Assembly (NCBI GenBank): GCA_030147845.1
Contig: JASBUN010000041.1
Span: 34,630-98,629, forward strand
Length of the DNA: 64,000 nucleotides
Source: Gammaproteobacteria bacterium
GTDB taxonomy: Bacteria > Pseudomonadota > Gammaproteobacteria > JASBUN01
Direction: 5' to 3'
Positions 46,976 through 62,993 of the stretch are shown piece after piece (position 1 is the stretch's first letter; each line of letters opens with the position of its first letter). The translations under genes were made by a program, and so were the position numbers. Under the pieces are notes generated by a model. The model was given only the letters and a program-made list of their open reading frames with translations, was not told the origin of the DNA and did not search any database.

Positions 46976-48286
46976 ATGCCAATGGGAACAGTACAGAGTA
47001 CCAAACCTCTATCTTCCCGGACAGTGGAGACGATGAAGCCGGGAGATAAGATTAAGGCCGACACGGGAGAAAACATTGGGTTGCGAGTGAAATGTGGGGC
47101 TACCGGCGTAAAGACATTTTTCTATCGCTATACCAGCCCGATCACCTCAAAGCTCGTTCAGGTGAAAATCGGCAACTTCCCGGAGACCTCCCTGGCCGAA
47201 GCGAGATTGAAGCTCCAGGGACTTAAACAAATTCGCCGCCAGGGGCACTGCCCGGCAACTGAGGCCAAAGAGGAGAAACGGCAGAAACGGGAGCAAGCCC
47301 AGGAATTGGAACAGGGACGAGTAGAGTCAGTAGAGAAGCCCTTCACCGCGGAGAACCTCGTAGAACTCTACCTGACCCAGTATATCGAAGACCGGAAATC
47401 TCCAAGCGGAAGAAAAATCGCCGGTGCACGAAAACCGAAAGGTCAGTCTGAGACGCGCAGAACCCTCTATGGCGATGTGATTCCCAAGTTGGGGGAGATG
47501 CCGGCAAATGCTGTCACGCGAAAGGCTGTGGTGGATATGATCATGGCAATTGTTCAACGTGGGGCAAATGTTCAAGCAGGAAATGTACTGAGAGAGCTTG
47601 CCGCCGCCTACGAATTTGCGATTGGTCTGGGCTATTTTTCAGATGAGTTTGCAAATCCGGCAATTCTCGCCAAATCAAGCCTCAAACAGGCCAAGGTGAA
47701 GCTTACCCATCAACGAGGAAAAAGAGTCCTCTCTGATACCGAGTTGGCGACGTTGCTGAAATGGTTGCCTGGCGCTGATTACACCGCAACACAAAAGAAT
47801 GTTCTTCGATTTACCCTCTGGACAGGGTGTCGTACCGGAGAGGTCTGCAATGCGGCCTGGAAGGACATCGACTTGAAGAAACGGACATTCCACATAAGGG
47901 AGAGTAAGACGGAGGTCGAGCGCTATGTACAATTGCCCCGTCAGGCGGTGGAATTCTTAACAACTCTTCGCCTGACCACTGGAGACTATCTGTTCCCATC
48001 CCAGAAAACGCGGCTGCCTATCCAGCAAAAACAACTAACCGAGCAGGCCTGGCGGATGAGGCAAAGCAACAGCATGGTAAATCTTCCGTCCTGGACACCT
48101 CATGATCTGCGCAGAAGTGTCAGGACTGGTCTGTCACGCTTGCAATGTCCTAACGAAGTGGCTGAAGCGGTATTGGGGCATTCACGTAAGGGGATTGAAG
48201 GAACCTACGATTTGCACAGGTACGAGGCGGAGTGTAGGCAGTGGTTACAGAAATGGGCGGATCATCTGGACTCGCTTATTCGTTAG
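46976..48286 (+). CDS. int: Tyrosine integrase, P4/CP4-57-like with N-terminal arm-binding (DUF4102-like) domain
   Basis: N-terminus LRVKCGATGVKTFFYRYTSP...VKIGNFPETSLAEARLK. Catalytic elements WTGCRTGEV, HDLRRSVRT and LGHSRKGIEGTYDLHRY. Confidence 0.92.
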   Translation: MPMGTVQSTKPLSSRTVETMKPGDKIKADTGENIGLRVKCGATGVKTFFYRYTSPITSKLVQVKIGNFPETSLAEARLKLQGLKQIRRQGHCPATEAKEEKRQKREQAQELEQGRVESVEKPFTAENLVELYLTQYIEDRKSPSGRKIAGARKPKGQSETRRTLYGDVIPKLGEMPANAVTRKAVVDMIMAIVQRGANVQAGNVLRELAAAYEFAIGLGYFSDEFANPAILAKSSLKQAKVKLTHQRGKRVLSDTELATLLKWLPGADYTATQKNVLRFTLWTGCRTGEVCNAAWKDIDLKKRTFHIRESKTEVERYVQLPRQAVEFLTTLRLTTGDYLFPSQKTRLPIQQKQLTEQAWRMRQSNSMVNLPSWTPHDLRRSVRTGLSRLQCPNEVAEAVLGHSRKGIEGTYDLHRYEAECRQWLQKWADHLDSLIR

Positions 48287-48578: not shown

Positions 48579-51464
48579 ATGATGGCGCGCGGTTCGGAGT
48601 GGAGAAGATGGGACCTTCACGTCCATACGCCAGACACGGCGCTTGAGGACAATTACGGAAGCTGGGACGAGTATATCGCGGGTATAGTCGCCCAGAATGA
48701 AGTCCGGGTCATTGGCGTTACCGATTACTTCCTGTTTGATAATTACGGTAAGCTAAAGGGTCACCATGAAAGCGGTGCATTGCCCGAAATTGATCTGCTC
48801 ATCCCCAATATCGAGTTCCGCATAGCGCCGCCGACCGATAAAGCAACTGCTTTGAATATTCATCTACTGGTCTCGCCGGAGGACCCTAACCACCAGCAAG
48901 AGATTCATAATGCACTCGCCCGGCTGACATGGGAGTATGGCGGCAAGAATTATTCGTGCATTCGTGACCAACTGATTGATCTTGGAAAAGCGTACGATCC
49001 CACTAAGACAGAAGAAAAGGGCGCACTCGCGGTTGGCGTTACGCAGTTCAAAATTGACTTTTCCAGTTTTCGAAATTGGTTTAAAAGAGAGCCCTGGATC
49101 AGGGGCAATTCCATTATCGTAGCGGCAGCAGGTGATGACGGTCTCTCGGGTTTTTATACCGACGGCGGATGGGCAGGCTGGCGCGAAGAAATCACAAGGT
49201 TTAGTCCTGCGCTATTTTGCGGCCGTCCGGGTGAACGCGACTTCTGGCTCTGCCGTACAACAGAAGAGCATAAAGAAACCGTAATGAAACTGGGAGGGAT
49301 GAAGCCGTGCCTGCACGGTTCCGATGCGCACGGCATGGACAAACTTTTCAAACCTGATCAGGACCGGTATTGCTGGATCAAGGCGGATACGACATTTGAC
49401 GGGCTCAAGCAGGTCCTTTACGAACCTGAAACCCGCGTCCATATCGGTCCGACAGAGCCGGTCTATCATGATGAATCCCGTGTCATCCGCAATATCCGAT
49501 TGTCCGGCTCGGACGGATGGTTTGATGATATAGAAATTCCGCTTAATGCCGGGCTGGTGTCCATCATCGGGCAAAAAGGCTCGGGTAAATCCGCATTGGC
49601 CGAAGTAACGGCCTTTGCTGCCGGAAGCTGGGCGACTGATGAAAAGGGCAGCTTTTTACGCCGCGCTGGCGGACTACTTAATGGCATGCAAGTCGAGCTT
49701 GAATGGTGCGATGGTGAAACAACGTCGGCAGTGCTTGGCGAAGAGCAGTCAGATGATTGTGCCGTGCGCTACCTGTCACAAAAATTTGTAGAGCATTTAT
49801 GTTCTGATGACCGGCTCGGCGACGAGCTTGTCAATGAAATAGAAAATGTCATCTTTTCCTATATTGACGAGAGTGAAAAGCTCAATGCCTCGTCATTTAA
49901 AGAACTCCGGGCAATAAAGACTGAAGGAACCCTCGCACAAGGGCAACGTCTTAGCGACGATATCAAACGCCTCATTGCCGAAGATTGTGAACTGCGCGAC
50001 AAAGCCCGTGCGCTGCCCGAAAAAAAATCGCGGATCAAGACGCTCGCCGATGAGAGGGCGGGGCTTGTCAAACAGATGCCAAAGGCCAGTACACCGGAAG
50101 AGCAAAAAACCCAGCAAGCCTTACAGCAGGCACGTACCACCCTGGCTGGCTTGCAAAAATCGGCAGGAGAAGACAAACAAAAGTTACAGAAGATCAAGAA
50201 TATCAGAACTGAAATCACGTCCTTTGAAACACGTATGCAACGGTTCTATGACGAACTGGAACCGGACCTCATCGAAGTCGATGTTCCACAGGAAAAGCGT
50301 GCGCGTTACAAGCCGGCATTTCCAGGAGAAACAGAGCCACCGCTTGCCGCGCGTGAAACGGCTATCAAAGCCACTATTAATACAAGGCTTGGCACAGAAG
50401 ACGCGCCTGCTTCCGGAACTATCCGCGCCATACAAAAAGAAATCGAAGCTTTGAGCAAGATAGACACTGCTGACAAGGCGCGAGCCAAACGGATTGAAGA
50501 AATCCAAAAACGCATTGCAGCGATTGATACCGAGACGGAAAGGCTCAACAAAGAAATCGAGCAGATTGAAGGTCCTGATAGAAATCGCGTCGGCGCCATC
50601 GGGACAGAACGCATGACGACCTATCGCACCTATTTCGAAAACCTCAAGGACGAGCATGCAACGCTTGCGGAATTGTACTCGCCGATCACGGCCCGTATTC
50701 AATCGGACGCTTCATTATCACAGGAACAAGCTCTCGAATTTTCCATTCGCTGGGAAGTCGATCTTGATACGTGGTTGACACGCGGCGAAGGCCTTTTCGA
50801 TCAGCGCCGGACCATTCCGTATAACACTATGGCCGGACTTAGAAAGGCAGCCCAAGAAAAACTCGTCCCCGCTTGGGCTTCGGGCGATCCCGACCAGATA
50901 AAACCTGCCATGGACGAATTTTTAACCGCGTTTCGGGACAAGAAGTTGCCGCCTTCACAATATATGCGCACAGGAATCACCGTGCAGGACTTGTTCGACT
51001 GGCTTTACGAGACGGAACATATCCGGCTGAGTTACGGCCTCAAATATAACGGTACAGAGCTTGAAAAACTCTCGCCCGGAACAAAGGGGATCGTTCTACT
51101 TATTCTATATCTCGGTATGGACGTGTCGGATTCACGGCCACTGATTGTCGACCAGCCGGACGAAAACCTCGATAACGAGTCGATTTACGAGTTGCTTACC
51201 GGGTACTTCAAAGCGGCAAAGTCAAGGCGGCAGATTATCCTGATTACCCACAACCCCAACCTTGTTGTAAACGCGGATTCAGAACAAGTCATTATCGCGA
51301 CCTGCGCGCGGCGTGAAAATGGCTTGCCGCATATCACCTATGAAGCGGGCGCGCTTGAAAATCCGCGTATCAGGGCACAGGTCTGTCGCATTCTGGAAGG
51401 CGGCACGACGGCCTTTCGCAAGCGTGAAAAACGCTACGCGCTTAATGCTGCCCAGTCGGTATAA
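48579..51464 (+). CDS. PHP-domain phosphoesterase fused to a Rad50/SMC-like ABC ATPase with long coiled-coil insert
   Basis: PHP motifs WDLHVHTP, GVTDY and LHGSDAH. Walker A GQKGSGKSA and Q-loop RYLSQKF. About 300 aa of E/K/Q/L-rich coiled-coil sequence. Signature-like LSPGTKG, Walker B LIVDQPDENLD and H-loop ILITHNPN. GGAGG at 48566-48570 lies 8 nt before the ATG. Confidence 0.8.
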   Translation: MMARGSEWRRWDLHVHTPDTALEDNYGSWDEYIAGIVAQNEVRVIGVTDYFLFDNYGKLKGHHESGALPEIDLLIPNIEFRIAPPTDKATALNIHLLVSPEDPNHQQEIHNALARLTWEYGGKNYSCIRDQLIDLGKAYDPTKTEEKGALAVGVTQFKIDFSSFRNWFKREPWIRGNSIIVAAAGDDGLSGFYTDGGWAGWREEITRFSPALFCGRPGERDFWLCRTTEEHKETVMKLGGMKPCLHGSDAHGMDKLFKPDQDRYCWIKADTTFDGLKQVLYEPETRVHIGPTEPVYHDESRVIRNIRLSGSDGWFDDIEIPLNAGLVSIIGQKGSGKSALAEVTAFAAGSWATDEKGSFLRRAGGLLNGMQVELEWCDGETTSAVLGEEQSDDCAVRYLSQKFVEHLCSDDRLGDELVNEIENVIFSYIDESEKLNASSFKELRAIKTEGTLAQGQRLSDDIKRLIAEDCELRDKARALPEKKSRIKTLADERAGLVKQMPKASTPEEQKTQQALQQARTTLAGLQKSAGEDKQKLQKIKNIRTEITSFETRMQRFYDELEPDLIEVDVPQEKRARYKPAFPGETEPPLAARETAIKATINTRLGTEDAPASGTIRAIQKEIEALSKIDTADKARAKRIEEIQKRIAAIDTETERLNKEIEQIEGPDRNRVGAIGTERMTTYRTYFENLKDEHATLAELYSPITARIQSDASLSQEQALEFSIRWEVDLDTWLTRGEGLFDQRRTIPYNTMAGLRKAAQEKLVPAWASGDPDQIKPAMDEFLTAFRDKKLPPSQYMRTGITVQDLFDWLYETEHIRLSYGLKYNGTELEKLSPGTKGIVLLILYLGMDVSDSRPLIVDQPDENLDNESIYELLTGYFKAAKSRRQIILITHNPNLVVNADSEQVIIATCARRENGLPHITYEAGALENPRIRAQVCRILEGGTTAFRKREKRYALNAAQSV

Positions 51465-51600: not shown

Positions 51601-54600
51601 ATGGATGATCTAAACAAGCAAATACCGCCGCCAAAATCATGGATGGATTTTGAGAATCTATGCCATGGCCTTTTTAGTGCAATCTGGAGTGATCCTTATG
51701 CCCAAAAGAACGGCAGGAGTGGCCAGCCGCAACACGGTGTAGACGTTTTCGGATCGAAAAATCAGGAGTATGGCGTTTACGATGGTGTCCAATGCAAAGG
51801 CAAAAACGCCAATTATGGTAGTCAAGCAGATATAGAGGAAATCGAACAGGAAATCGCGAAAGCGGAGAAGTTTTCTCCGGATCTGCGTCACTGGATATAT
51901 GCGACGACTGCGCCCGTAGATTCCAAGTTACAAGAAGCCGCGCGAGAGATTTCGAAAGCGCGGGCGGCCAAGAATCAGTTTACCGTCTCTGTATTCGGAT
52001 GGGAGCAAATAGAATTCTTGCTGTGTAAGCATAAAGAGGTTTTGCGTGCCTTTTATCCCGAATTGGGATTTGATCCAAACGCCTTCATTGAAGAGCTTCG
52101 TAAACAACTTCAATCAGAAATATCCGATCTCACGTGTTTTCTTTCCTCTGCCACGACAAAAGAGGAGCAAAGCCGAAGCATTGTGGGCGATCCTGTGTGG
52201 GTCCCCGTAAAGTTCGGCCAGGGGCGCGGACTCGGGCCAGCCCTCATGGGCCGCTCGATGAGCGCGAGTGACGCCATTTCGTGTCCACAACTACCGGAAG
52301 TATCCGGAGTCATTGCTGACTTATCGCGTGCCTATGCATCGCGCATTGTTGGAGAGCCTGGCTCAGGAAAATCGCTTTCTGCCTTCCAGGCGATGAGACA
52401 CTTTGCCTCCGCAGGGTGGCAGATTTACAAGCTCGTCGATCCGCGCCGACAGGATATAAACATTCCTGATAAATCGAACGGTAGCAAAATACTTCTCTTT
52501 ATCGATGATGCTCACATCATCGATGAATCCCGTCTCAAATTGCTTGAAGAGAAGACCGGGCCGGATCTGTATGTTCTTTCAACCCACAATTCCGAAGACG
52601 GGCGCACATCCTTCCGCAATGCGATTGCTATTGATAGCAGCAGGGCCGTAACGGTAATTGCGAATGCGCTCATGCGCGATCCCCACAGGACGTTAGGAGA
52701 GGTCAGTAAAGTCGATAAGGATGTCGGTGAAAAGATGATGGATATCGGTCTTGAGGACCGCATAAGTGATGCACGGGAACGGGCGAATTGCCCATGGCAG
52801 TTTTGTTTCATTCTTGGTGGTGGCTGGCGTAGAGCAAGTGAATTAGCTGATGCTGCGCGGCACGCAAAGGCCGATATCATTCTTGCAGGTCTTGCGTGCC
52901 GTCAGTTGATATCCAGAGATGAACCTCTCGAAATCGAAGTTGCTCTAAAGCTCCTGTCTTGTGCCGGTATTGATGAAAAATCGGTCAATAACAGTATAGA
53001 TTGGCTCGTATCGCAGCGGTTGCTACTTTCAAGGGAAGATCTGAGAACACCGCATCAGCGATTTTCCGCCATCGTTCTCGGCAAGATTCTTCAAGGTCAG
53101 GATTTACCTGGCAGGGACACAATTGGAAAGCTTCTGCAGCACATGCTCAGAGATGAGTCCTATTCACTTGCAGGAAAGCGCATGCTGCTTCATGAATTGC
53201 GGTTTCAGGGCAATTATGGACGGTGGGCATATCTTGTGCCCGCAGACACACTTGGTGGTGATCTCGCAAAATGCTGGCAGGCAAGTAGCGCGGAAGAAAG
53301 ACTCCACGCCTGCTATTTTCTGAGTGAACTGGATTGCTACTATAATGGCTGGCCGGAGGCGTTGTTTAAAGACCACGAACAAGTTATTGCCGACTGGATT
53401 TCCGCTCCCCAAACACCTGTAGGGTGGGGGCTGGCCCGTCTCATACACGGAATTGGTAACCAGCATCGGGAATATATTTCTTCAATCATTGAAAAAGCCG
53501 ATCCGCTCTGCATAGCCCGAGTGGTGAATAATGTTGATGTTGATAGTACGGCCCATCTTGGGGAACTTGTCGGTGCCCTTGGCTATGTAAGGAACACGGA
53601 TTGGCACCGCGAATTTGCTTCCAAACTAGATAGAGATGCCTTACTAAATTTACCTGGACACTGGCCGGATGGTGAGGACCTCTGGGCTTTTGCCAAGTTG
53701 TGTCAAGCGCTTGACGGAGTGGACGAGAGTCTCGGACTGGACCTGGCTGCAAAGTTTATTCCCGTGGCCCAAAAAGCATATGACCGCGATCCGGTAGAAG
53801 CGTTTCACTTTCTGCACGACATGAATATGTCAGTGTTGAGGATTTACGATCCATTAGGCATTTATGTCGGGAAATTGGGTCCAAGAAATCGTCATCGCCA
53901 GATCGCCCGCCAAATGTTTAAGGAGATCAATGTCCAAAAGCTGGCATATCAGATATCTGAAACCCGGCTCCGCGATATGCAGTCCGCAGCAGGCCTTCTA
54001 TCGATGTTGCACAACGTTTCACCCGCAAAATATGAAAAGGTTATTGATGGTATAGATTGGAACTGCATTGCTGAAACCATCGGGCATCATTGGGACAACC
54101 TACCACATGAGGCGGAAGTGTTTCTTGGTGTTTGCTATGGGGCCGAACCCTCGCGTCACAAGCTGGACGGGCTCATCCTTGATAATCTTGAGAGGATACG
54201 GCTTTTCCCGCCCCGTATTGCTATCGTGAGCCCCGATGCAGCAATTCGTCACGTTGAGGCGGGAAAGGAAATCCGTATTGCGCAGCACGATCATGTCGAT
54301 TGGACATTTGGCCCAGTTGTCCTCGCATTGTTTGATGAAAGGAAGCCAGAACGACTAGAGTCCGCGGTGCAGAGTGCGGAGGCCACCGCAAGCAAGACGT
54401 TTTCGCAGAGAAACCATAGCTGGTTTAAAGACGCGTATGAGTACATCAATATCTTGAATAAAGTAGCGCCAAAAAGTTTGGAGCGAATTCTGGATGGTGT
54501 GGATGTTTCCGGTGCTTCGGAAGGGTGGGCTGATTCCTTGAAGAAGGGAGGAGGCCCAGCCAAGACAGTGGCATTTCTAATTGCGCGCAGCCTTAAGCGC

Positions 54601-54681
54601 GAAGACAAGCTTGGAGAGCTTGCGCAATCATTAAGAAAGCGTTTCCCGCGTAAATCCGTCCTACCGAAAAATAATTCGTGA
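51601..54681 (+). CDS. Mrr-like PD-(D/E)XK nuclease domain + P-loop NTPase + large C-terminal helical region (STAND/Avs-like architecture)
   Basis: N-terminus FENLCHGLFSAIW...GVDVFG...GVQCKG follows the Mrr catalytic-domain pattern (D...QxK). Walker A GEPGSGKS and Walker B ILLFIDDAH. About 650 further residues carry no recognised motif. ATG 51601 is preferred to TTG 51592. Confidence 0.75.
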   Translation: MDDLNKQIPPPKSWMDFENLCHGLFSAIWSDPYAQKNGRSGQPQHGVDVFGSKNQEYGVYDGVQCKGKNANYGSQADIEEIEQEIAKAEKFSPDLRHWIYATTAPVDSKLQEAAREISKARAAKNQFTVSVFGWEQIEFLLCKHKEVLRAFYPELGFDPNAFIEELRKQLQSEISDLTCFLSSATTKEEQSRSIVGDPVWVPVKFGQGRGLGPALMGRSMSASDAISCPQLPEVSGVIADLSRAYASRIVGEPGSGKSLSAFQAMRHFASAGWQIYKLVDPRRQDINIPDKSNGSKILLFIDDAHIIDESRLKLLEEKTGPDLYVLSTHNSEDGRTSFRNAIAIDSSRAVTVIANALMRDPHRTLGEVSKVDKDVGEKMMDIGLEDRISDARERANCPWQFCFILGGGWRRASELADAARHAKADIILAGLACRQLISRDEPLEIEVALKLLSCAGIDEKSVNNSIDWLVSQRLLLSREDLRTPHQRFSAIVLGKILQGQDLPGRDTIGKLLQHMLRDESYSLAGKRMLLHELRFQGNYGRWAYLVPADTLGGDLAKCWQASSAEERLHACYFLSELDCYYNGWPEALFKDHEQVIADWISAPQTPVGWGLARLIHGIGNQHREYISSIIEKADPLCIARVVNNVDVDSTAHLGELVGALGYVRNTDWHREFASKLDRDALLNLPGHWPDGEDLWAFAKLCQALDGVDESLGLDLAAKFIPVAQKAYDRDPVEAFHFLHDMNMSVLRIYDPLGIYVGKLGPRNRHRQIARQMFKEINVQKLAYQISETRLRDMQSAAGLLSMLHNVSPAKYEKVIDGIDWNCIAETIGHHWDNLPHEAEVFLGVCYGAEPSRHKLDGLILDNLERIRLFPPRIAIVSPDAAIRHVEAGKEIRIAQHDHVDWTFGPVVLALFDERKPERLESAVQSAEATASKTFSQRNHSWFKDAYEYINILNKVAPKSLERILDGVDVSGASEGWADSLKKGGGPAKTVAFLIARSLKREDKLGELAQSLRKRFPRKSVLPKNNS

Positions 54682-56015: not shown

Positions 56016-56414
56016 ACTTGTTCCATGGCTTCATCGTTTTCGATGCAATGATTGTATTGGCCTGGTCACAAGGGAATTAGGTCGAAACCCCGGATCCAGC
56101 AGCGGCTTTTCCGCGTATTTTTCGGTACGCGCCGTCCTTCCAGCCGTCTAGTTCACACATACCGGTCGCAGCGTTACTAATAAAGCAGGAAAGCGACTCT
56201 AGAGGGACGTGCTTTCGGAGACGTTTATTTTTGTCCAGGCCACTAACATCCGAAGGGAAGAAATTCATGAAGGAGAAAGTGGTGAAAATCGAACTTTGCA
56301 GTGGCAACCAGCCGTATTTGAATCATGTTTGCGACATCGCACGTAAAGATCCCACTATCGCTTCGCTTCCGCGGGCAACGCCATCCAATCTGGCTTTCCT
56401 ATAGGGTACCGCCA

Positions 56415-57998
56415 ATGGCTAGCCAAGACTCTAGCGCCATGCAGGAACCGGGCATTCGTGACGCGGCCACGACAATCATGCTGGATGTGTGTCGTATCAA
56501 GCCCTATGAACGCAATCCGCGTCGCAGCGAGAATCCGGAATACGATCGCATCAAGGCCTCCATCCGTGCCAATGGCATTGATCAGCCCTTGGTAGTCACG
56601 TGTCGACCCGGCGAAACCGACTACGTCGTCGGTGCCGGCGGCAACACGCGGTTGCACATCCTGCAGGCGTTGTACCAGCAAACGGGTGACGAGCGATTCC
56701 AGTGGGTCGATTGCCTGTTCAAGCCGTGGCGTGAAGAGTCGGATGTGCTGCTGGCACATTTAAGGGAAAACGATCTGCGCGGTGGACTGAGTTTCATCGA
56801 CAAGGCGCAGGCCGTCTTCGAAGCCAAACAACTTCTCGAAGAGGAAATGGGCAACGATAGCCTTTCGCAGCGACGCCTCGAAACGATACTTCGAGATCGC
56901 GGCTACAGCTTGAGTCACGGGCTGATCTCCCAGATGGGCTACGCTGTTCACACCTTGCTCCCGGTGATTCCCCAGGCGCTGAAGTCGGGTCTCGGCCGAC
57001 CGCAGGTGGAGCGGATTCGTGCGCTGGACAGGGCCGCGCGCGCCCTCTGGAAAAAACGCAAGCTGGGTGATGACGAATCCTTCGATGCAGTGTTCGCGGC
57101 ATTGTGTGAACGATACGACGGTCCCGAGTGGGATCTCGAACTGTTGCGCAATGCCATTGAGATTGAGGTTGCGGAAGAGCTCGAGGTGAGCATCCAGGCC
57201 ATTCGTGTTGAACTGGACGCGCACCTTTTAGGGCGCGAGATCGAAACCCCAATCCTTGAGAACGATCATGACGCGGATACACCAGAAGAAAGAGCGCCTT
57301 CTTTTAATGCCATTACGACAAAAGCAAAAAGTGCTGCCGAGGAAAAGATACTTGGTGACTCACGCGGCAACAACGCGGATAAGGCATCCAAGGGTGAAGT
57401 GCCTCCACCGCAACGACCATCGCTTGTCATCGCGCCAGATCCATCGGAGGAAGACTCAGAGGAGCAGCCGGCTAACCCTATAGAGTCAGAGGCGGGTTTC
57501 ATCGCAAGTTCGATCACGCCCAGCCAACTCGCTTCCACGGATCTCAAATCATTGCGTGCTCGGGCCTGGACGCTGGCGGCTCGTCTCGCGCAACGCAACG
57601 GCATCGGCGGCCTGGTCGCGCCGCTGTCCGGCAAGGGACTCGGGTTCATCCTCCGCGACGTACCGGATTCCTCGTTGGCCGAACAGTTGGACGCCGACAC
57701 GCTTGGCCAGGTCTCCATGTTGTGGTGGCACCTGGCGGCTTGTGCGGAGATGACCGTGGCACCACTGGATGCCGTTATCGCCACCTTGTCTGACGACTCG
57801 ATCCTGCGCCAGGCGCTCGAGAACCAGGATGCCGGCCTGCTCTTCAACAGTGTCTGGACCCTCGACCCGGGACATACCGGCTATCGGCTGTGGCGCCAAC
57901 TCGGCGACCAGGACTGGCAGGACTTGCTCAACCTGATGGATACCTACCGCCGCATACATCGTGCGGCGGAGGCCTCGCAGGTCCGGCTCTGGGAGTAG
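56415..57998 (+). CDS. ParB-like nuclease-domain protein (ICE type)
   Basis: IKPYERNPRRSENPEYDRIKASIRANGIDQPLVV and VVGAGGNTRLHIL give the ParB/Srx-fold N-terminal pattern. ATG 56415 lies in the track ORF frame. Confidence 0.8.
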   Translation: MASQDSSAMQEPGIRDAATTIMLDVCRIKPYERNPRRSENPEYDRIKASIRANGIDQPLVVTCRPGETDYVVGAGGNTRLHILQALYQQTGDERFQWVDCLFKPWREESDVLLAHLRENDLRGGLSFIDKAQAVFEAKQLLEEEMGNDSLSQRRLETILRDRGYSLSHGLISQMGYAVHTLLPVIPQALKSGLGRPQVERIRALDRAARALWKKRKLGDDESFDAVFAALCERYDGPEWDLELLRNAIEIEVAEELEVSIQAIRVELDAHLLGREIETPILENDHDADTPEERAPSFNAITTKAKSAAEEKILGDSRGNNADKASKGEVPPPQRPSLVIAPDPSEEDSEEQPANPIESEAGFIASSITPSQLASTDLKSLRARAWTLAARLAQRNGIGGLVAPLSGKGLGFILRDVPDSSLAEQLDADTLGQVSMLWWHLAACAEMTVAPLDAVIATLSDDSILRQALENQDAGLLFNSVWTLDPGHTGYRLWRQLGDQDWQDLLNLMDTYRRIHRAAEASQVRLWE

Positions 57999-58003
57999 GC
58001 TCG

Positions 58004-58612
58004 ATGGACGGGACCAAGGAATCCGATTTGATCACGGCCGTGCTGATGTACGCGATCCGCTGCCTGGCCGAAGGGGATCAAGCCGCGTTGCGCAACATGA
58101 ATTTCGGACCGCGCGAAATCGAGGCGTTGCGCGAGATGAACCTGGCCGATCTCTATCGCGTCGAATCCTTGCGCGCCCATTGCCTGGATATCGTTCTCAA
58201 TCGGGACGTGTACTGGCCCATGATCGAGCATCTGCGCCGTCAGCGCGAATCCGAGGAACTGCAACAAGTGCTCATTGCCGCCGACGCACCGTTGGAGATG
58301 ATGCAAACGCTCTTCGGCTTGGGCTCCCGCGAATACACGCGCCTGCGCCGTATGCTCACTGTCGATCCTTCGGTCGGCCGGCCGGCGGAACCCGATGAAG
58401 CGAGCACGCACAAGCTCTGGAACGCCTGGGTCCAACGGACGGACACCGAAGAAGAGGGTCCGCTCCCCCCGGACGAGTATCTCGCCATCCACCGTGAAAC
58501 CGGTATCTCTATGCGGGCCATATGGAACTTGACGCAACGCTGGAATCAATACGGTGACTTGACGGGTCGAAGCAGTCACGACCCTGTGGAGCGAGCGTGT
58601 TCGGATGGATGA
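58004..58612 (+). CDS. Conserved ICE protein (DUF2857-like by recollection)
   Basis: MDGTKESDLITAVLMYAIRCLAEGDQAALRNMNFGPREIEALREMNLADLYRV. The gene starts 6 nt after the ParB-like stop and overlaps the next gene by 8 nt. The family name is unverified. Confidence 0.55.
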   Translation: MDGTKESDLITAVLMYAIRCLAEGDQAALRNMNFGPREIEALREMNLADLYRVESLRAHCLDIVLNRDVYWPMIEHLRRQRESEELQQVLIAADAPLEMMQTLFGLGSREYTRLRRMLTVDPSVGRPAEPDEASTHKLWNAWVQRTDTEEEGPLPPDEYLAIHRETGISMRAIWNLTQRWNQYGDLTGRSSHDPVERACSDG

Positions 58613-59864
58613 GGGTTCTCGCGGACTCCGGCCCGAGACCCACGCACTGGATGCACTGATACAGGCGACCATCGAACGCGTACAACAGGAATCGGGTAGC
58701 AAGCAGTCCGATACCATGCTGTTCATGGGCAACCGCCATCAGGCGTTCCCCACGCTGGTAGTGCAAGACCCCGTGCTCGAACCCGTGGACAAGTTGGTGT
58801 GGATGGTCATCATGCTGCAGGCCCAGGAGATCGGCGGCAGCACGGCGTTCCCCAGTTACGAGTATCTGGCCAAGAAAACCAACGTCTCCTCCACATCGAC
58901 CATCTCCCGGGCTATCGCCATTCTGCGCGCCACCCGTTGGCTGACCTTGTGTGCGCGGCTGCGGGAGGCGAGCGGCCGCTTCCGCGGCAACGTCTATGCG
59001 TTACACGATGAACCCTTGCCGTTGGTCGACGTCCTGCACCTGGACCCGGACTATATGCAGTTCCTGCAGCAGTCGCTCGGGCATCATCATGCTCGGGTGC
59101 GCCTGGTCGCCAAGGGGGTGTTGGATACCATCGACGAGGACATCCAGGAGGGTCTCGATATCTGCGCCCAAGGCCATCCGCTCGAACGTCGCATGCAAGC
59201 GGCGGAGGCGATCCAGCAGGATTCACCGCGGCGTTATTTCGCATTCAGCGCAAAGGTGATGACCCGTCTGCGCAACGTGGTCGGGGAAGGCGGTACGGAT
59301 CACCGGGACCAAAATTCAAAGGCGGATGAAACAGGGTTCCAAATTTCGAACCCACAAAATTCAAAGTCGAGTAGTTGTAGTAGTTATATAAATAAAACTA
59401 CTACTACAGAACCCGCTGAAGAGAAAATAATTAGCGGCCACGCAGAGGGGGAGCCGTCCCTGATCTACCCCAAGCGTCTCTCTGACAACCAGCGCGAGCT
59501 CGCGGATCGTTATTTGAAATCCGTTTCCGAAACTGCACGTCAGCCCATCCTCGATGAGCTGGAAGGCCGGTTTCGTTCGGAACAGAAGGGCATGAAGCCG
59601 GTGTACGACGAAATGCGCTTCCTGCACTTCTTATGTCGCGCCGCGAACAAGGGTGAGTTCGTGCCGAACCTCGGCATCAAGGTGCATGACGAACGCATCG
59701 AGCGGAAGAAGGCGCGCTTGAGGTACCTGAAGCAACAGGAGCAAAGCCTGGCGGAAGTGAAGCGTCGCGATAGTTCCAGCGCCTCAGGTCAACAACAGCT
59801 CGCCGAGCTACGCAAATCGCTCAACCTGCCGGCGCGTCCACAGACCGACGACGAGTCGGACTGA
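58605..59864 (+). CDS. ICE/pathogenicity-island replication-protein-like winged-helix protein (STY4528-like by recollection)
   Basis: FPSYEYLAKKTNVSSTSTISRAIAILRATRWL is HTH-like. A low-complexity linker (QNSK...QNSKSSSCSSYINKTTTT) separates two domains. The family name is unverified. Confidence 0.55.
   Translation: MDEGSRGLRPETHALDALIQATIERVQQESGSKQSDTMLFMGNRHQAFPTLVVQDPVLEPVDKLVWMVIMLQAQEIGGSTAFPSYEYLAKKTNVSSTSTISRAIAILRATRWLTLCARLREASGRFRGNVYALHDEPLPLVDVLHLDPDYMQFLQQSLGHHHARVRLVAKGVLDTIDEDIQEGLDICAQGHPLERRMQAAEAIQQDSPRRYFAFSAKVMTRLRNVVGEGGTDHRDQNSKADETGFQISNPQNSKSSSCSSYINKTTTTEPAEEKIISGHAEGEPSLIYPKRLSDNQRELADRYLKSVSETARQPILDELEGRFRSEQKGMKPVYDEMRFLHFLCRAANKGEFVPNLGIKVHDERIERKKARLRYLKQQEQSLAEVKRRDSSSASGQQQLAELRKSLNLPARPQTDDESD
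59310..59404. repeat. Iteron-like direct repeats plus AT-only tract flanked by an inverted repeat, inside the replication-protein-like gene
   Basis: CAAAATTCAAAG lies at 59310-59321 and 59355-59366 (perfect 12-mers), with a related AAATTTCGAA at 59341-59350 inside GGTTC...GAACC. GTAGTAGTT (59377-59385) and AACTACTAC (59396-59404) flank a pure A/T spacer. A 14-nt A/T-only run spans 59384-59397. Confidence 0.7.
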
Positions 59865-59880
59865 CCGATACCCGAAATGC

Positions 59881-59901
59881 AGTGGTTACAGTGTAACCAC
59901 T
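59881..59901. repeat. Perfect 21-bp palindrome in the intergenic region
   Basis: AGTGGTTACA-G-TGTAACCACT, 17 nt after the stop of the replication-protein-like gene. Confidence 0.8.
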
Positions 59902-60032
59902 CTCAGCACTCTCTCCCCGGTTATTGTGTCTCGGCGTCAACCACGCCGAACCGTGCGGGAATAATTCCTTGTCGGCCGGCTCTCGTCATGGATTGATGGG
60001 CGACTCATTCACCAGGATGAAGGATATGCCAC

Positions 60033-60833
60033 ATGAGTTCCGGTAAGTCAGACCCAGAACAACAGAACCACCCGGAAGACGCGAGCGTCGATGCCGGGCC
60101 GGGTGCGCTGCGTGGGCAGGTGTGGCTGACGGTCCAGACCCGGCAGGCGCAACGGCTGATCCGGGGGCGCAACGGCAACGCCGACAAACCGGCGATCATC
60201 GGGCTAGTGGGATTTGCCGATCGGCTGCGTGTGATCTGGCAAGCGGCACGCAATGACGATCCCTACGCCGATTGGTGGCTGGTCAAGGTGCACGAGGCGC
60301 TGGAACGGGTGCGTGACCTGATCAAGAACGACCAGGCGGCGTTAGACGCGCAGCTCGAACAGCTCACCGCCCTGGAAGTGGCCGTGGCGGAGTCGATGAA
60401 GCCATACCGGATCGCGCTCCAGTTCGCCAACCCCTACGCCTATCGAGGCGCACAACTGATCGCCGAGTACGACAGGTTTGTGCGCACGTTGTTGACCGCC
60501 CACCATGTGGGAGTGTTGACCGGGGCCGCGATGGAAGGCTCACTCAATGCGGGTGCGCGCAAGATCCGCGGCGCGTTCGCGGTACCGCAAGGTTATCACT
60601 TCCTCAACGTCGATCGCGCGGCACTCCAACAAGGCACCGCCAACGCGAGTCGCGCCAGCCAGCTCATGGGCGAAGTCCCGGAAGACGTATTGAACAGAGC
60701 ACACCAGGCACCACTGGTACCCCGCAAAGTCCGATTCCCCGAAGAGGCGGCCAAGCACATCCGTCTCAAGCCCGTTGATGCCGCACCAAGAGCGGGTATC
60801 GCCGTGGGAAACGACGACGAGGTTAGCACCTAG
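60033..60833 (+). CDS. Conserved ICE protein (PFL_4669/TIGR03761-like by recollection)
   Basis: Long ORF co-oriented with the ICE core; LTVQTRQAQRLIRGR...DPYADWWLVKVHEALE. The family name is unverified. Confidence 0.5.
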   Translation: MSSGKSDPEQQNHPEDASVDAGPGALRGQVWLTVQTRQAQRLIRGRNGNADKPAIIGLVGFADRLRVIWQAARNDDPYADWWLVKVHEALERVRDLIKNDQAALDAQLEQLTALEVAVAESMKPYRIALQFANPYAYRGAQLIAEYDRFVRTLLTAHHVGVLTGAAMEGSLNAGARKIRGAFAVPQGYHFLNVDRAALQQGTANASRASQLMGEVPEDVLNRAHQAPLVPRKVRFPEEAAKHIRLKPVDAAPRAGIAVGNDDEVST

Positions 60834-60908
60834 TTTTCGCTGGTATGCAACGCGTCGCCCGCCATACTACTGCGACGACATGATTAATGCCGGTAGGGCC
60901 GAAGCCGT

Positions 60909-61289
60909 ATGACTAAGGCGACAGCAGGCAAACGTATCGCACTTCTGCTCGACCCGCGGGTGGCGTTTGAGGCCCTGATCCTGAACCGGCTGGAGCGAAT
61001 TCCGGAAGTCCGGCGTCAAGAGTGGCTGCGCGGGCTCCTGGTGCAGGGCTTTCGCCAGGAATGCCAATCGTTGCGGGTGGTACAGGACGAGGTTGTTCCG
61101 CAACCGATGAGACCACCACAAGGCCAAGGCGTGTCAACGAGGCAACCGCGAACCGCGTTTGCCGCCTGGTTGGCGCAACCATCGGCTCCACGCGTCATCG
61201 AGACCGCGGCGACGCCGGCGGCGGTCGAAGTGAACACCGCAGCGGGTCAGGCTAAGCCCTTCGCCGGCTTGAGAAAGGTGATCGGTTGA
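60909..61289 (+). CDS. Hypothetical small ICE protein
   Basis: ORF directly upstream of the ParM-like gene. Its N-terminus is KRIALLLDPRVAFEALILNRLERIP. No motif was recognised. Confidence 0.4.
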   Translation: MTKATAGKRIALLLDPRVAFEALILNRLERIPEVRRQEWLRGLLVQGFRQECQSLRVVQDEVVPQPMRPPQGQGVSTRQPRTAFAAWLAQPSAPRVIETAATPAAVEVNTAAGQAKPFAGLRKVIG

Positions 61290-61328
61290 GGCTGGTTGCA
61301 TAAAAGACGAGACAAGAACGGAGGAGAA

Positions 61329-62354
61329 ATGATGACAGAATCCAATACGGTGTCGCCCATCCAAGTCGGTCTCGATGACGGGTATGCCTTTACGAAGGTG
61401 GCCCTGCCGGATGGCAGGCTGATCGCCATTCCCTCGCGGGCCAGGGTCGGCATGTCCGGCGTCACTTGGATCGATAACGGCCGGCAGCGCATCTTCGAGT
61501 ACGAAACCGAAGGGGCGATGTATGCGGTGGGCGCCGTCGACGGTGCGCCCACGCATTTCGAGGGCTATCCCACCTCGGGACTGAACCGCGTCATCGTACA
61601 GCATGCCCTCCAGGAAGCCGGGCTGTCCGGCCGCTCCATTCATGCGGTCTCCGGACTCCCCGTCAGCGCCTTCTACAAGAAGAACGGTGAGCAGCGTCGC
61701 GACACCATCGAGAGGAAGCGCCTCAGCTTGAAGCAGGCGGTGCAACCGAAGTCGGAGCGGCTGCCGGCCGCGATCGCGTTCCACGAGGTGATCCCGGAGG
61801 CGCTGGCCGCGTGGTACGACTACGTCATCGTCACCCAAGCCAATGATGTCATTCTTGATGAAGCGCGCTTGTCGGTGCCGATCGCCATCGTGGACATCGG
61901 CGGGCGCACCACCGACTACGTGGTCGTGAAGGACCAGGGCGTCGTTCACGCATCGTCGGGTTCCTTACAGGGCGGCATGTTGGACGTGAAACAGCAGGTG
62001 GCCAACGGCATCCAGGAACGCTTCGACCTCGAGAACGTGGGCGAGCAGCTGGTGTCATCGGCCGTCGAACGCGGCGTCGTACGTTTGCACGGCAAGGATC
62101 ACGATGTCGCGGCACTGGTGGACGCCGCCAAGCGGGAGCTGGTGGAACGGCTCTATGCCGAGAGCCGTCGCCAACTCGGGCTGGGCGTGGAACTGGATCG
62201 GATTGTGTTCGTCGGCGGTGGCACGGTAGCGCTGGCGGAACACATCGCCAATTGGTTTCCCAACCAGGCCATCGCCGAACACCCGGCCTTCGCCAACGCG
62301 CGCGGCATGCTGAAGTATCTGCAATACGTCTGTGAAGAGTCGGACGTGGCCTGA
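61329..62354 (+). CDS. ParM/StbA-like actin-fold ATPase
   Basis: Actin-fold phosphate and adenosine motifs VGLDDGYAFTKVA, VDIGGRTTDYVVV and VFVGGGTVAL. GGAGGAG lies before ATG 61329. Confidence 0.7.
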   Translation: MMTESNTVSPIQVGLDDGYAFTKVALPDGRLIAIPSRARVGMSGVTWIDNGRQRIFEYETEGAMYAVGAVDGAPTHFEGYPTSGLNRVIVQHALQEAGLSGRSIHAVSGLPVSAFYKKNGEQRRDTIERKRLSLKQAVQPKSERLPAAIAFHEVIPEALAAWYDYVIVTQANDVILDEARLSVPIAIVDIGGRTTDYVVVKDQGVVHASSGSLQGGMLDVKQQVANGIQERFDLENVGEQLVSSAVERGVVRLHGKDHDVAALVDAAKRELVERLYAESRRQLGLGVELDRIVFVGGGTVALAEHIANWFPNQAIAEHPAFANARGMLKYLQYVCEESDVA

Positions 62355-62482
62355 CAATGGTTTTATACGTGGTCACTGCGGTCTCAGTGATAAACAAGGC
62401 GCCTTAGGACCGTGCGACAGGCGCCGTGGCGAAAGCCTCGGTCCAGCTTCAAGGAAACACAATCGTTTCCGTTTTTCACCAA

Positions 62483-62510
62483 CCCTGCCGGGTAAGCCTT
62501 CCCGCCAGGG
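62483..62510 (+). repeat. ICE intergenic hairpin motif, copy 1 (upstream of the DUF3577-like gene)
   Basis: CCCTG-CCGGGTAAGCCTTCCCGC-CAGGG, preceded by TTTTTCACCAACCC (62472-62485). It shares the leader and the GCCGGGWAAGC core with copy 3. Confidence 0.6.
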
Positions 62511-62553
62511 TCGCGCTTGCTCCGGATGAAACCAACCTGAAGGAGTAAGCGCT

Positions 62554-62958: not shown

Positions 62959-62968
62959 ATCAACATCC

Positions 62969-62993
62969 GGCCGGGTAACTGAGTTACCCGGCC
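62969..62993 (+). repeat. ICE intergenic hairpin motif, copy 2
   Basis: Perfect 11-bp stem GGCCGGGTAAC / GTTACCCGGCC with loop TGA, 11 nt after the upstream stop. A second hairpin GGGGGAT-C-ATCCCCC lies at 63009-63023. Confidence 0.7.

What the first reader, a model, noticed from the sequence alone, without database searches (positions are those of the whole stretch)
51601..54681. Giant Mrr-like nuclease / P-loop NTPase / helical-array protein with STAND (Avs/NLR-like) organisation
The N-terminus follows the Mrr catalytic pattern (FENLCHGLFSAIW, GVDVFG, GVQCKG; D...QxK). About 130 aa further on lie a Walker A (GEPGSGKS) and Walker B (ILLFIDDAH). Roughly 650 residues of Leu/Ala-rich sequence with no recognisable motif follow. 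Effector nuclease, then NTPase switch, then a large C-terminal sensor is the layout of antiviral STAND (Avs) and other bacterial NLR-like proteins. The C-terminal region is where target recognition would reside and looks uncharacterised.
Basis: partly seen in the sequence, partly recalled or inferred. Interest (0 to 1): 0.75.

Follow-up and report, generated by a model that had tools for sequence, protein, structure and literature searches.

The report
Uncharacterised nuclease-armed antiviral STAND (Avs-like) protein
This gene, carried as cargo on a mobile element, encodes a 1,026-residue NLR-like immune protein (DNA-cutting head, ATP switch, long helical sensor) from a widespread, untested family, so it is a new member of a known class and not a new kind of system.

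Summary
Window 51601-54681 (+) is one intact 1,026-codon gene, and every quoted motif is present. The interpretation also holds.

- **N-terminal domain (aa 1-155):** a PD-(D/E)xK nuclease of the Mrr type. E18, D48 and Q64-x-K66 are near-invariant. The best structural match is MspJI.
- **NTPase (aa 246-345):** matches Pfam nSTAND3 and nSTAND5. The query scores below threshold; many homologues score above it.
- **Whole-protein AF2 model (pLDDT 89.8):** the three best PDB matches are the antiviral STANDs SAMD9, EfAvs5 and Avs4.
- **C-terminus (aa ~501-1014):** a HEAT/ARM-like alpha-solenoid.

Orthologous NTPase-sensor cores carry other N-terminal modules instead: trypsin-like protease, HNH, SIR2, SMEK and EAD7. 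This is the effector shuffling typical of defence STANDs.

No neighbouring gene is conserved, so this looks like a single-gene system. Homologues sit beside CBASS, Hachiman, type I R-M and OLD/Bil genes, on ICEs and plasmids. That includes 27 of 5,426 complete E. coli genomes, where it is annotated "hypothetical protein".

No Avs1-5 model in PADLOC matches it. The sensor has only 286 relatives among 1.84 billion representative proteins.

Verdict: an uncharacterised Avs-like family with an unknown trigger. It is probably already counted in the 2026 STAND census, which I could not check. Moderate interest.

The parts
51601..54681 (+). Complete gene, 1,026 aa plus TGA stop: effector - NTPase - sensor protein.
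   Evidence: translation and stop codon; full-length homologues that start at the same Met.
51601..52065 (+). N-terminal Mrr-type PD-(D/E)xK nuclease domain (aa 1-155). Catalytic candidates: E18 (51652-51654), D48 (51742-51744), Q64-C65-K66 (51790-51798).
   Evidence: Near-invariant residues. Mrr_cat or Mrr_cat_2 hits in 7 of 29 homologues. AF2 pLDDT 89, pTM 0.86. Foldseek top hit MspJI, E 4.4e-5.
52066..52197 (+). Hypervariable linker (aa 156-199). This is the junction at which N-terminal modules are exchanged.
   Evidence: Median 17% identity and no conserved column. pLDDT below 50 for aa 177-196. Homology of the swapped variants begins at about aa 190-200.
52198..52335 (+). Family-specific conserved segment before the P-loop (aa 200-245; consensus W-x-P-V-x-F-x3-R-D-L-G-P-A-L-M-G-R-x-L-G-P-x-D-A-x-A-C-P).
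   Evidence: 41% of columns are at least 90% conserved. The segment is retained in every N-terminal variant.
52336..52635 (+). P-loop nucleotide-binding domain (aa 246-345). Walker A GEPGSGKS at 52351-52374; Walker B ILLFIDDAH at 52489-52515.
   Evidence: G251, G256, K257, D302 and H305 are invariant in 121 of 121 sequences. nSTAND3 and nSTAND5 hits. Five parallel strands in the model.
52636..53100 (+). Helical and putative winged-helix part of the NOD module (aa 346-500), with invariant PWQFCF (52792-52809), GGGWRR, and R482-x-P484-H485-Q486 (53044-53058).
   Evidence: Invariance. All-helical in the AF2 model. Any role of H485 as the STAND 'MHD-like' histidine is inference only.
53101..54678 (+). 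C-terminal alpha-solenoid (HEAT/ARM-like), the presumed sensor (aa 501-1026).
   Evidence: About 35 helices at pLDDT above 90. Foldseek hits to importin-beta, karyopherins, SF3B1, CAND1 and importin-alpha. Only 286 relatives among 1.84e9 representatives. Full-length hits (about 940-1,150 aa) carry it at their C-terminal end; many shorter hits look like fragments.
48579..51464 (+). Neighbouring cargo gene, not part of the system: TrlF-family PHP + SMC/ABC-type ATPase (Ppl-like).
   Evidence: NF045780 scores 605.7 bits against a cut-off of 350. PADLOC Ppl, partial match. Not a conserved neighbour of the STAND gene.
46976..48286 (+). Tyrosine integrase at the left end of the mobile element, beside mutS.
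   Evidence: Phage_integrase, Arm-DNA-bind_3 and Phage_int_M.
56325..64000 (+). PFGI-1/SPI-7-type ICE backbone: ParB-like, DUF2857, STY4528, PFL_4669, ParM-like, STY4534, RadC. The STAND gene is cargo of this element.
   Evidence: NCBIfam, Pfam. GC drops to 0.50-0.52 in 48-56 kb.

Best explanation
The gene encodes a stand-alone antiviral STAND (Avs/NLR-like) protein carried as cargo on an integrative conjugative element.

**Proposed mechanism, by analogy with Avs3, Avs4, Avs5 and Avs7:**
1. In the resting state the C-terminal alpha-solenoid and the NOD module hold the protein monomeric, probably ADP-bound.
2. The solenoid binds a conserved invader molecule, most likely a phage protein. This releases autoinhibition.
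3. ATP binding at the Walker A/B site drives oligomerisation.
4. Oligomerisation brings the N-terminal Mrr-type PD-(D/E)xK domains together into active nuclease assemblies.
5. These degrade DNA and abort the infection.

**Shown here:** the three-module anatomy, conservation of the catalytic and nucleotide-binding residues, fold similarity to solved antiviral STANDs, effector swapping on the same core, absence of a conserved partner gene, and location in defence islands and mobile elements.

**Inferred:** defence function, the nature of the ligand, oligomerisation, the DNA substrate, and cell death or growth arrest.
For: **Anatomy.**
- AF2 model: mean pLDDT 89.8, pTM 0.73.
- N-domain: E18, D48, Q64 and K66 conserved in 117-120 of 121 sequences. 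Mrr_cat or Mrr_cat_2 above threshold in some homologues. Best fold match MspJI, then EcoO109I, Can2, McrC, Card1 and Cap4.
- NTPase: Walker A K257 and Walker B D302 invariant. nSTAND3 in 26 of 29 and nSTAND5 in 23 of 29 family members.
- Whole-model Foldseek top 3: SAMD9 (1.8e-8), EfAvs5 SIR2-STAND (2.5e-6), Avs4-portal (8.2e-6). HEAT/ARM solenoids follow.

**Modularity.**
- The same NTPase-sensor core carries a trypsin-like protease (its N-domain hits LmuA, Avs1b and HamA models), SMEK_N, HNH (hits CBASS and SduA effector models), EAD7 or SIR2_2.
- The Mrr-like N-domain recurs at about 50% identity on 1,600-aa proteins whose NTPase hits the PADLOC Avs4 model.

**Single gene.**
- No flank cluster occurs in more than 7 of about 63 loci holding most of the gene. 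The commonest is an integrase.

**Context.**
- Type II CBASS and toxin-antitoxin modules on a mobile element.
- OLD-like, AAA_15+DUF4276 and Bil genes.
- hsdS/hsdR flanks in the L002, L003 and L014 loci.
- Hachiman and an Mrr_cat protein in an IS-flanked 14-kb block in E. coli, Klebsiella and Enterobacter.
- Here, low-GC cargo beside a Ppl-like TrlF ATPase on a PFGI-1-type ICE.

**Distribution.**
- At least 398 loci across 185,579 species genomes, spanning many phyla.
- 27 of 5,426 E. coli genomes at 99% identity or more.

**Literature.**
- Avs5 is SIR2 + nSTAND3 + helical repeats and resembles SAMD9 (10.1101/2025.07.08.663546).
- Avs proteins oligomerise on target binding (PMC13581612).
Against: - There is no experimental evidence for any member of the family.
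- The query is below the Pfam gathering scores: nSTAND3 21.3 against 27.2, nSTAND5 20.6 against 34, and no Mrr_cat hit.
- No PADLOC Avs1-5 or NLR model matches it. Only weak PDC-S73 and PDC-M58A hits appear. NCBIfam gives nothing.
- Sequence profiles find no solved STAND.
- Global TM-scores to SAMD9, Avs5 and Avs4 are low (0.14-0.28), so similarity is at domain level, not in overall shape.
- The sensor is HEAT/ARM-like rather than the TPR-like type usual in Avs proteins. Nothing identifies its ligand.
- Promoter and terminator scans are at chance level.
Confidence: 0.72

Rival explanations
1. A two-gene system with the upstream TrlF-family PHP/SMC-like ATPase. TrlF would sense DNA ends or phage cues, and the STAND protein would act as its partner or effector.
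For: The two genes are co-oriented, 136 bp apart, and share the low-GC cargo segment. In Photorhabdus, TrlF works in an operon with partner genes (10.1101/2020.06.02.129163).
Against: TrlF is found in only 1 of 78 homologous loci, and there it lies 5.6 kb away. No flanking gene is conserved. TrlF relatives such as Ppl are described as single-gene defences. The STAND protein already has its own effector, switch and sensor.
Confidence: 0.05
2. An NTP-dependent restriction-type enzyme, similar to type IV or modification-dependent enzymes. The helical C-terminus would read DNA directly, the NTPase would act as a motor or switch, and the Mrr/MspJI-like domain would cut foreign DNA without cell suicide.
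For: The best fold match of the nuclease domain is MspJI, a modification-dependent REase, and McrC is also in the list. One homologue gives a weak DNA_alkylation (AlkD-type HEAT) hit, E 0.0027, below threshold. UniRef and NCBI name some members 'restriction endonuclease'.
Against: The same NTPase-sensor core carries protease, SIR2, EAD7 or SMEK modules, which make no sense for a DNA-reading restriction enzyme. The NTPase is the STAND type, not the McrB/GTPase or helicase type. The C-terminal domain is near neutral: pI 6.3 here, family median 7.4. No methyltransferase partner is conserved.
Confidence: 0.1
3. A non-antiviral role, for example competition between mobile elements or anti-plasmid activity, an addiction or toxin module that stabilises the ICE, or a signalling STAND unrelated to immunity.
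For: The gene is always on mobile or variable DNA: ICEs, plasmids and IS-flanked blocks. No phage trigger is known. Defence-associated and non-defence STAND clades are interspersed in the published tree (PMC13581612).
Against: The neighbours are mostly recognised anti-phage systems. The effector repertoire is that of abortive-infection systems. There is no antitoxin-like partner and no DNA-binding output domain.
Confidence: 0.1

Closest known systems
Avs5 (SIR2-STAND; EfAvs5 PDB 9jap, PaAvs5) and the SAMD9-like group (SAMD9/9L, Avs6, Avs9)
   Same: - Tripartite layout: effector, nSTAND3-type NTPase, alpha-helical repeat sensor.
- SAMD9 and EfAvs5 are the two best structural matches of the whole model.
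- The Avs5 NTPase is the same Pfam family, PF20720 (10.1101/2025.07.08.663546).
- A sister set of about 1,100-aa proteins joins SIR2_2 and nSTAND3 to this very sensor.
   Different: - The effector here is an Mrr-type nuclease, not SIR2, PNP or AlbA_2.
- The protein is about 200 aa longer than EfAvs5.
- There is no PADLOC Avs5 match and no sequence-profile match to 9jap.
- TM-scores are only 0.24-0.28.
- No OB-fold or SAM domain is present.
Avs4 (Mrr-like nuclease - STAND - TPR; EcAvs4 bound to phage portal, PDB 8dgf)
   Same: - Same effector class and the same order of modules.
- It is the third-best structural match.
- N-domains about 50% identical to this one sit on 1,600-aa proteins whose NTPase hits the PADLOC Avs4 model.
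   Different: - The NTPase belongs to another clade (nSTAND3/5), and there is no Avs4 HMM hit on this protein.
- The sensor is about 520 aa and HEAT/ARM-like, whereas Avs4 has a TPR sensor of about 1,000 aa.
- The trigger is unknown.
MspJI / Mrr family PD-(D/E)xK nucleases
   Same: Catalytic signature D...QxK with an upstream Glu on helix 1, and the alpha-beta-beta-beta-alpha-beta core. MspJI is the only significant PDB match of the isolated N-domain.
   Different: No SRA-like or winged-helix DNA-reader domain is present. Here the nuclease is the output of a STAND switch.
Avs7-Avs24 and the 198 defence-associated STAND clades of Lee et al., Nature 2026 (PMC13581612)
   Same: Same class. Their seed set included Mrr-bearing STANDs and the nSTAND clades. 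Enterobacterial homologues of this family exist, which is the kind of protein they sampled.
   Different: I could not establish whether this family is one of their clusters, because the supplementary tables are not held. No paper in the library cites WP_023300121 or WP_042863491. RefSeq still names them 'hypothetical protein'.

Membership tests
Mrr-type PD-(D/E)xK nuclease (Pfam Mrr_cat PF04471 / Mrr_cat_2 PF13156) | Catalytic Asp and (D/E/Q)-x-Lys on adjacent strands, plus an acidic residue on helix 1. | tested here: met
   E18 in 118/121, D48 in 120/121, Q64 in 119/121, K66 in 117/121 with 3 Arg. The exceptions are mainly the two homologues with swapped N-domains.
Mrr-type PD-(D/E)xK nuclease (Pfam Mrr_cat PF04471 / Mrr_cat_2 PF13156) | Restriction-endonuclease-like alpha-beta-beta-beta-alpha-beta fold. 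| tested here: met
   AF2 N-domain (pLDDT 89): H14-28, strands 35-36, 49-51 and 60-65, H78-88, strand 95-101. Foldseek: MspJI E 4.4e-5, probability 1.0. The next hits are PD-(D/E)xK nucleases at non-significant E-values.
Mrr-type PD-(D/E)xK nuclease (Pfam Mrr_cat PF04471 / Mrr_cat_2 PF13156) | Pfam model score above the gathering threshold. | tested here: inconclusive
   The query has no hit at E <= 0.1. Among homologues, P0023 scores 29.1 bits (cut-off 21) and P0072 scores 27.5 bits (cut-off 22). 7 of 29 members hit at E < 0.01.
Mrr-type PD-(D/E)xK nuclease (Pfam Mrr_cat PF04471 / Mrr_cat_2 PF13156) | Metal-dependent DNA cleavage. | not testable with these tools
   Needs biochemistry.
STAND NTPase (nSTAND3 PF20720 / nSTAND5 PF25199) | P-loop with Walker A GxxGxGK[ST] and Walker B hhhhDD. 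| tested here: met
   GEPGSGKS 251-258 and ILLFIDDAH 297-305. K257 and D302 are present in 121/121.
STAND NTPase (nSTAND3 PF20720 / nSTAND5 PF25199) | Pfam nSTAND model above the gathering threshold. | tested here: inconclusive
   The query scores 21.3 (cut-off 27.2) and 20.6 (cut-off 34). Homologues above the cut-off include P0102 at 34.4, P0028 at 33.4 and P0023 at 31.2. 26 of 29 members match at E < 0.01.
STAND NTPase (nSTAND3 PF20720 / nSTAND5 PF25199) | Fold similarity of the NOD-plus-repeat body to solved STAND proteins. | tested here: met
   Foldseek against PDB: the top 3 are SAMD9 9zjs_B, EfAvs5 9jap_A and Avs4 8dgf_A, each with probability 1.0. Global TM-scores are low (0.14-0.28).
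STAND NTPase (nSTAND3 PF20720 / nSTAND5 PF25199) | Helical domain plus a winged helix whose conserved His contacts the bound nucleotide. | tested here: inconclusive
   A helical region at 346-500 and an invariant R-x-P-H-Q (482-486) exist. Without model coordinates, neither the wing nor the His-nucleotide contact could be checked.
STAND NTPase (nSTAND3 PF20720 / nSTAND5 PF25199) | C-terminal superstructure-forming repeats. | tested here: met
   Alpha-solenoid at aa 501-1014 with pLDDT above 90. HEAT/ARM matches.
Avs (antiviral STAND) types 1-5 as modelled in PADLOC-DB v2 | Match to an Avs1-5 profile. | tested here: not met
   No Avs hit on the query or on P0028. Only weak PDC-S73 and PDC-M58A/M54A hits appear.
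Avs (antiviral STAND) types 1-5 as modelled in PADLOC-DB v2 | Effector - NTPase - sensor in one polypeptide, with interchangeable effectors. | tested here: met
   Mrr, trypsin, HNH, SIR2_2, SMEK_N and EAD7 variants occur on the same core.
Avs (antiviral STAND) types 1-5 as modelled in PADLOC-DB v2 | Location among defence genes or on mobile elements. | tested here: met
   This is a qualitative sample, not a statistical enrichment test. Neighbours include CBASS, Hachiman, type I R-M, OLD/Bil and integrases, on ICEs and plasmids.
Avs (antiviral STAND) types 1-5 as modelled in PADLOC-DB v2 | Phage protection, and activation by a defined phage protein. | not testable with these tools
   Needs plaque assays and co-expression screens.
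Avs6-Avs24 / STAND clades of Lee et al. 2026 and Legrand et al. 2025 | Listed in their clade or sensor-cluster tables. | not testable with these tools
   The supplements are not held. The main texts give no accession or description that matches.
TRL system (TrlF-TrlG-TrlR) | The STAND gene is a conserved partner of TrlF. | tested here: not met
   TrlF occurs in 1 of 78 homologous loci and is not adjacent there. No TrlG-like or TrlR-like ORF lies beside TrlF in the window.

The most novel reading that the evidence does not exclude
The conserved HEAT/ARM-like solenoid is a sensor type not represented among characterised Avs sensors. It would recognise a cue outside the known repertoire (terminase, portal, capsid, tail and replication proteins). 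That cue could be another conserved phage or conjugative-element protein, or a non-protein or host-derived signal. The same sensor has been coupled by evolution to at least six different outputs.
Probability: 0.3. Interest if true: 0.6.

Novelty: new member of a known kind. Interest (0 to 1): 0.4.

Why it matters
Bacterial STAND/NLR-like receptors are now known to sense much of the core phage proteome, yet most of the roughly 200 defence-associated clades have no known trigger.

This family is a good candidate for closing part of that gap:
- It is compact and strongly conserved across phyla.
- It appears to work as a single gene.
- A near-identical native copy exists in E. coli, Klebsiella and Enterobacter.
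- Its sensor is restricted to this clade and is coupled to several alternative effectors.

Trigger identification is therefore directly testable. It would also show how a HEAT/ARM-type solenoid performs pattern recognition.

For genome annotation, the result turns a recurrent "hypothetical protein" or "nSTAND3 domain-containing NTPase" into a predicted nuclease-armed immune sensor.

Tried and rejected
- **Sequence-profile search of PDB** with the 121-sequence alignment found only the P-loop of APS kinase. Single-sequence searches with the NOD region and with the SIR2 variant gave only spurious designer-repeat hits. No solved relative is detectable by sequence.
- **NCBIfam** gives nothing for the protein. 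**PADLOC** gives only weak candidate-system hits.
- **TrlF partnership** rejected: not conserved.
- **Conserved-neighbour search** by all-against-all clustering of flanking ORFs found no partner.
- **Promoter and terminator scan:** counts at or below the shuffle expectation, so uninformative.
- **Foldseek against viral structures (BFVD):** no match at E <= 0.001. **tblastn against 50,697 phage records:** no match. The family is not phage-borne in those sets.
- **Nucleic-acid-binding sensor idea:** the C-terminal domain is not basic. The single DNA_alkylation hit is below threshold. Not supported, not excluded.
- **Host identification:** MutS is at most 68% identical to any species representative, so the island boundary could not be mapped by synteny. 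No tRNA is present at the integrase.
- **Named Avs families:** I could not check whether the family is already named in Lee et al. 2026, because the supplements are not held.


Full report
**Observation.** Window 51601-54681 (+) is a single intact ORF of 1,026 codons ending in TGA. A TTG three codons upstream extends the mechanical ORF. All 120 retrieved homologues begin at the same Met-Asp-(Asp/x)-Arg/Leu N-terminus, so ATG 51601 is the start.

- FENLCHGLFSAIW, aa 17-29
- GVDVFG, aa 46-51
- GVQCKG, aa 62-67
- GEPGSGKS, aa 251-258
- ILLFIDDAH, aa 297-305

Two details need correcting. Walker A lies about 185 residues after the QxK motif, not about 130. The 721 residues after Walker B are not motif-free. 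They hold invariant family signatures: PWQFCF 398-403, GGGWRR 406-411 and R482-x-P-H-Q486.

**Family.** A search of 5.8 billion clustered proteins returned 528 homologues. More than 120 are full length (about 1,000-1,050 aa) at 40-94% identity. A scan of one genome per species found at least 398 loci. They span Pseudomonadota, Chloroflexota, Latescibacterota, Verrucomicrobiota, Spirochaetota, Acidobacteriota, Actinomycetota and Desulfobacterota. Database names are "hypothetical protein", "ATP-binding protein", "nSTAND3 domain-containing NTPase" or "restriction endonuclease".

**N-terminal domain (aa 1-155).**
- The query has no Pfam nuclease hit. Homologues pass the curated thresholds: P0023 on Mrr_cat (29.1 bits, cut-off 21) and P0072 on Mrr_cat_2 (27.5 bits, cut-off 22). 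7 of 29 members hit at E < 0.01.
- E18, D48, Q64 and K66 are conserved in 117-120 of 121 sequences. The exceptions are mainly the two homologues with a different N-domain.
- An AF2 model of the isolated domain (pLDDT 89, pTM 0.86) has the alpha-beta-beta-beta-alpha-beta order of restriction-endonuclease-like folds.
- Its only significant PDB match is MspJI (E 4.4e-5). From memory, the MspJI catalytic domain uses the same D...QxK signature.
- The next hits are EcoO109I, Can2, McrC, EcoT38I, Card1, Cap4 and SgrAI. All are PD-(D/E)xK nucleases, at non-significant E-values.

The Mrr-type nuclease assignment is therefore supported.

**NTPase and NOD (aa 200-500).**
- The query hits nSTAND3 and nSTAND5 below threshold.
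- 26 of 29 and 23 of 29 family members hit at E < 0.01, several above the gathering score.
- Walker A K257, Walker B D302 and H305 are invariant.
- A family-specific conserved segment (aa 200-245) precedes the P-loop. A hypervariable, low-confidence linker (aa 156-199, median 17% identity) separates it from the nuclease.

**Whole-protein model.** AF2 with the 121-sequence alignment gives mean pLDDT 89.8 and pTM 0.73.
- Against PDB, the three best matches are human SAMD9 (1.8e-8), EfAvs5 SIR2-STAND (2.5e-6) and Avs4 bound to a phage portal (8.2e-6).
- A long series of HEAT/ARM solenoids follows: SF3B1, importin-beta and karyopherins, CAND1 and importin-alpha.
- Global TM-scores are low (0.14-0.28). 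The resemblance is therefore in modules and their order, not in overall shape.
- Sequence profiles detect no solved relative.

**Modularity.** Orthologous NTPase-sensor cores (33-47% identical from about aa 195 onward) carry other N-terminal modules:
- A trypsin-like protease in P0102/L011. Its N-domain hits PADLOC LmuA, Avs1b and HamA models.
- SMEK_N in P0078.
- HNH in L051, L054 and L060, which hits CBASS and SduA effector models.
- EAD7 in L043.
- SIR2_2 in P0199, and weakly in L059.
- Two unassigned domains in L061 and L063.

Conversely, the Mrr-like domain recurs at about 50% identity on 1,600-aa proteins whose NTPase hits the PADLOC Avs4 model. This interchange of death effectors and adaptor domains on a constant switch-plus-sensor is the hallmark of defence STANDs (Kaur et al., PMC8195603; Lee et al., PMC13581612).

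**Sensor.** The C-terminal 526 residues have only 286 relatives (E <= 1e-3) among 1.84 billion representative proteins. In full-length hits (about 940-1,150 aa) the domain lies at the C-terminal end. Many shorter hits look like fragments. The more distant set of about 1,080-1,150 aa that was checked (five proteins) also has an nSTAND3 NTPase, in one case with SIR2. The domain is near neutral and moderately conserved, at 38-41% median identity with 10-12% of columns at least 90% conserved. Nothing identifies its ligand.

**Context.** In the window the gene is cargo of a mobile element:
- A tyrosine integrase lies beside mutS.
- A TrlF-family PHP/SMC-like ATPase follows (NF045780, 605.7 bits).
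- Then come the STAND gene, AlpA, and a PFGI-1/SPI-7-type ICE backbone.
- GC falls to 0.50-0.52 across 48-56 kb, against 0.55-0.63 elsewhere.

TrlF is not a conserved neighbour. It occurs in 1 of 78 loci, 5.6 kb away. No other flanking gene is shared by more than 7 of about 63 loci that hold most of the gene.

Neighbours elsewhere include:
- integrases, UvrD-like helicases, hsdS/hsdR flanks, a caspase-helicase and a T4SS coupling protein
- a type II CBASS operon with toxin-antitoxin modules
- OLD-like, AAA_15+DUF4276 and Bil genes

In E. coli, Klebsiella and Enterobacter the gene sits in an IS-flanked 14-kb block with an Mrr_cat protein, a TIGR02391 protein, a Pua-like metallophosphoesterase and Hachiman. 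That copy is at least 99% identical in 27 of 5,426 complete E. coli genomes and is annotated "hypothetical protein". It is 37% identical to the window protein over the full length and keeps all the motifs.

**Mechanism (inferred).** By analogy with Avs3/4, Avs5 and Avs7 (PMC13581612; 10.1101/2025.07.08.663546):
1. The solenoid binds a conserved invader molecule.
2. Autoinhibition is released.
3. ATP-dependent oligomerisation juxtaposes the PD-(D/E)xK domains.
4. DNA is degraded, which aborts the infection.

Rivals are a TrlF-dependent two-gene system, a restriction-type enzyme that reads DNA directly, and a non-antiviral role on mobile elements. They are less well supported for the reasons given above.

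**Comparison and novelty.** The protein works like an Avs. It is not a member of Avs1-5 as modelled in PADLOC. Its NTPase is of the nSTAND3 type, which Avs5 shares. Its effector class is the one Avs4 uses. Its sensor is its own.

The 2026 census of prokaryotic STANDs (589 clades, 198 of them defence-associated, Avs7-24 named) very probably contains this clade, since Mrr-bearing and nSTAND seeds were used. I could not check this, because the supplementary tables are not held. No paper in the library cites the enterobacterial accessions.

I therefore rate it a new, uncharacterised member of a known kind, of moderate interest. Its main value is as a tractable family whose trigger is unknown.

Noticed in passing
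window 48579-51464 (+): A 961-aa PHP + SMC/ABC-type ATPase of the TrlF family (NF045780, 605.7 bits; partial PADLOC Ppl match). In Photorhabdus, TrlF sits in an operon with TrlG (AlbA_2 + HATPase_c_4) and TrlR. Here no TrlG or TrlR is present, and it looks like a second, independent cargo or defence gene.
   Followed up: partly
window 46771-48286: A P4-type tyrosine integrase starts about 200 bp from the mutS start codon. No tRNA or tmRNA gene occurs anywhere in the window, so the attachment site is not a tRNA. The island boundary was not mapped, because no close relative genome exists (MutS at most 68% identical).
   Followed up: partly
window 55114-56015 (-) and 56325-64000 (+): AlpA regulator (PF05930) and an unassigned 88-aa ORF. 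These are followed by a PFGI-1/SPI-7-type ICE backbone: ICE_PFGI_1_parB, DUF2857, STY4528, PFL_4669, ParM-like, STY4534 and RadC. The element runs off the window end.
   Followed up: partly
window 48000-56000: GC content drops to 0.50-0.52, against 0.55-0.63 in the rest of the window. This marks TrlF, the STAND gene and the AlpA region as recently acquired cargo.
   Followed up: yes
P0199, L059 (9116-12463), P0190, P0130 and other ~1,080-1,150-aa proteins: A sister set carries the same C-terminal sensor (22-36% identity) behind an nSTAND3 NTPase and a longer N-terminal region. That region is SIR2_2 in P0199 (24.9 bits, cut-off 24.5). This is an Avs5-like layout with a different, larger body, and PADLOC Avs5 models do not recognise it.
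   Followed up: partly
P0132, P0205, P0215 (516-518 aa) and P0198, P0203, P0206, P0208 (538-573 aa): These proteins consist of little more than the sensor solenoid. They could be truncated metagenomic gene calls or genuine stand-alone sensor proteins.
   Followed up: no
L165 9142-22735 (E. coli EH09-18-41 chromosome) and L163 (E. hormaechei plasmid): An IS-flanked defence block of about 14 kb, inserted in ydeT and shared at 99% identity or more between chromosomes and plasmids of E. coli, Klebsiella and Enterobacter. Gene order: hypothetical protein, TIGR02391 protein, Mrr_cat+DUF5074 protein, the STAND homologue, Pua-like metallophosphoesterase, HAD hydrolase, Hachiman HamA/HamB.
   Followed up: partly
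L016 4563-9989, L017 4678-9939, L024 4627-9813, L033 4614-9812: A protein of about 1,750 aa (only a weak AAA_30 hit) lies 43-189 bp from the STAND homologue in four loci, three of them Burkholderiales. In L024 a TrlF homologue lies just upstream of it. It may be a recurrent island module.
   Followed up: no
window 26686-43967 (-): Ordinary chromosomal genes: an AddAB/RecB-like helicase-nuclease pair and a Wsp-like chemosensory cluster (MCP, CheW, CheR, CheA, CheB and a GGDEF response regulator). These are assigned by reading the translations only.
   Followed up: no
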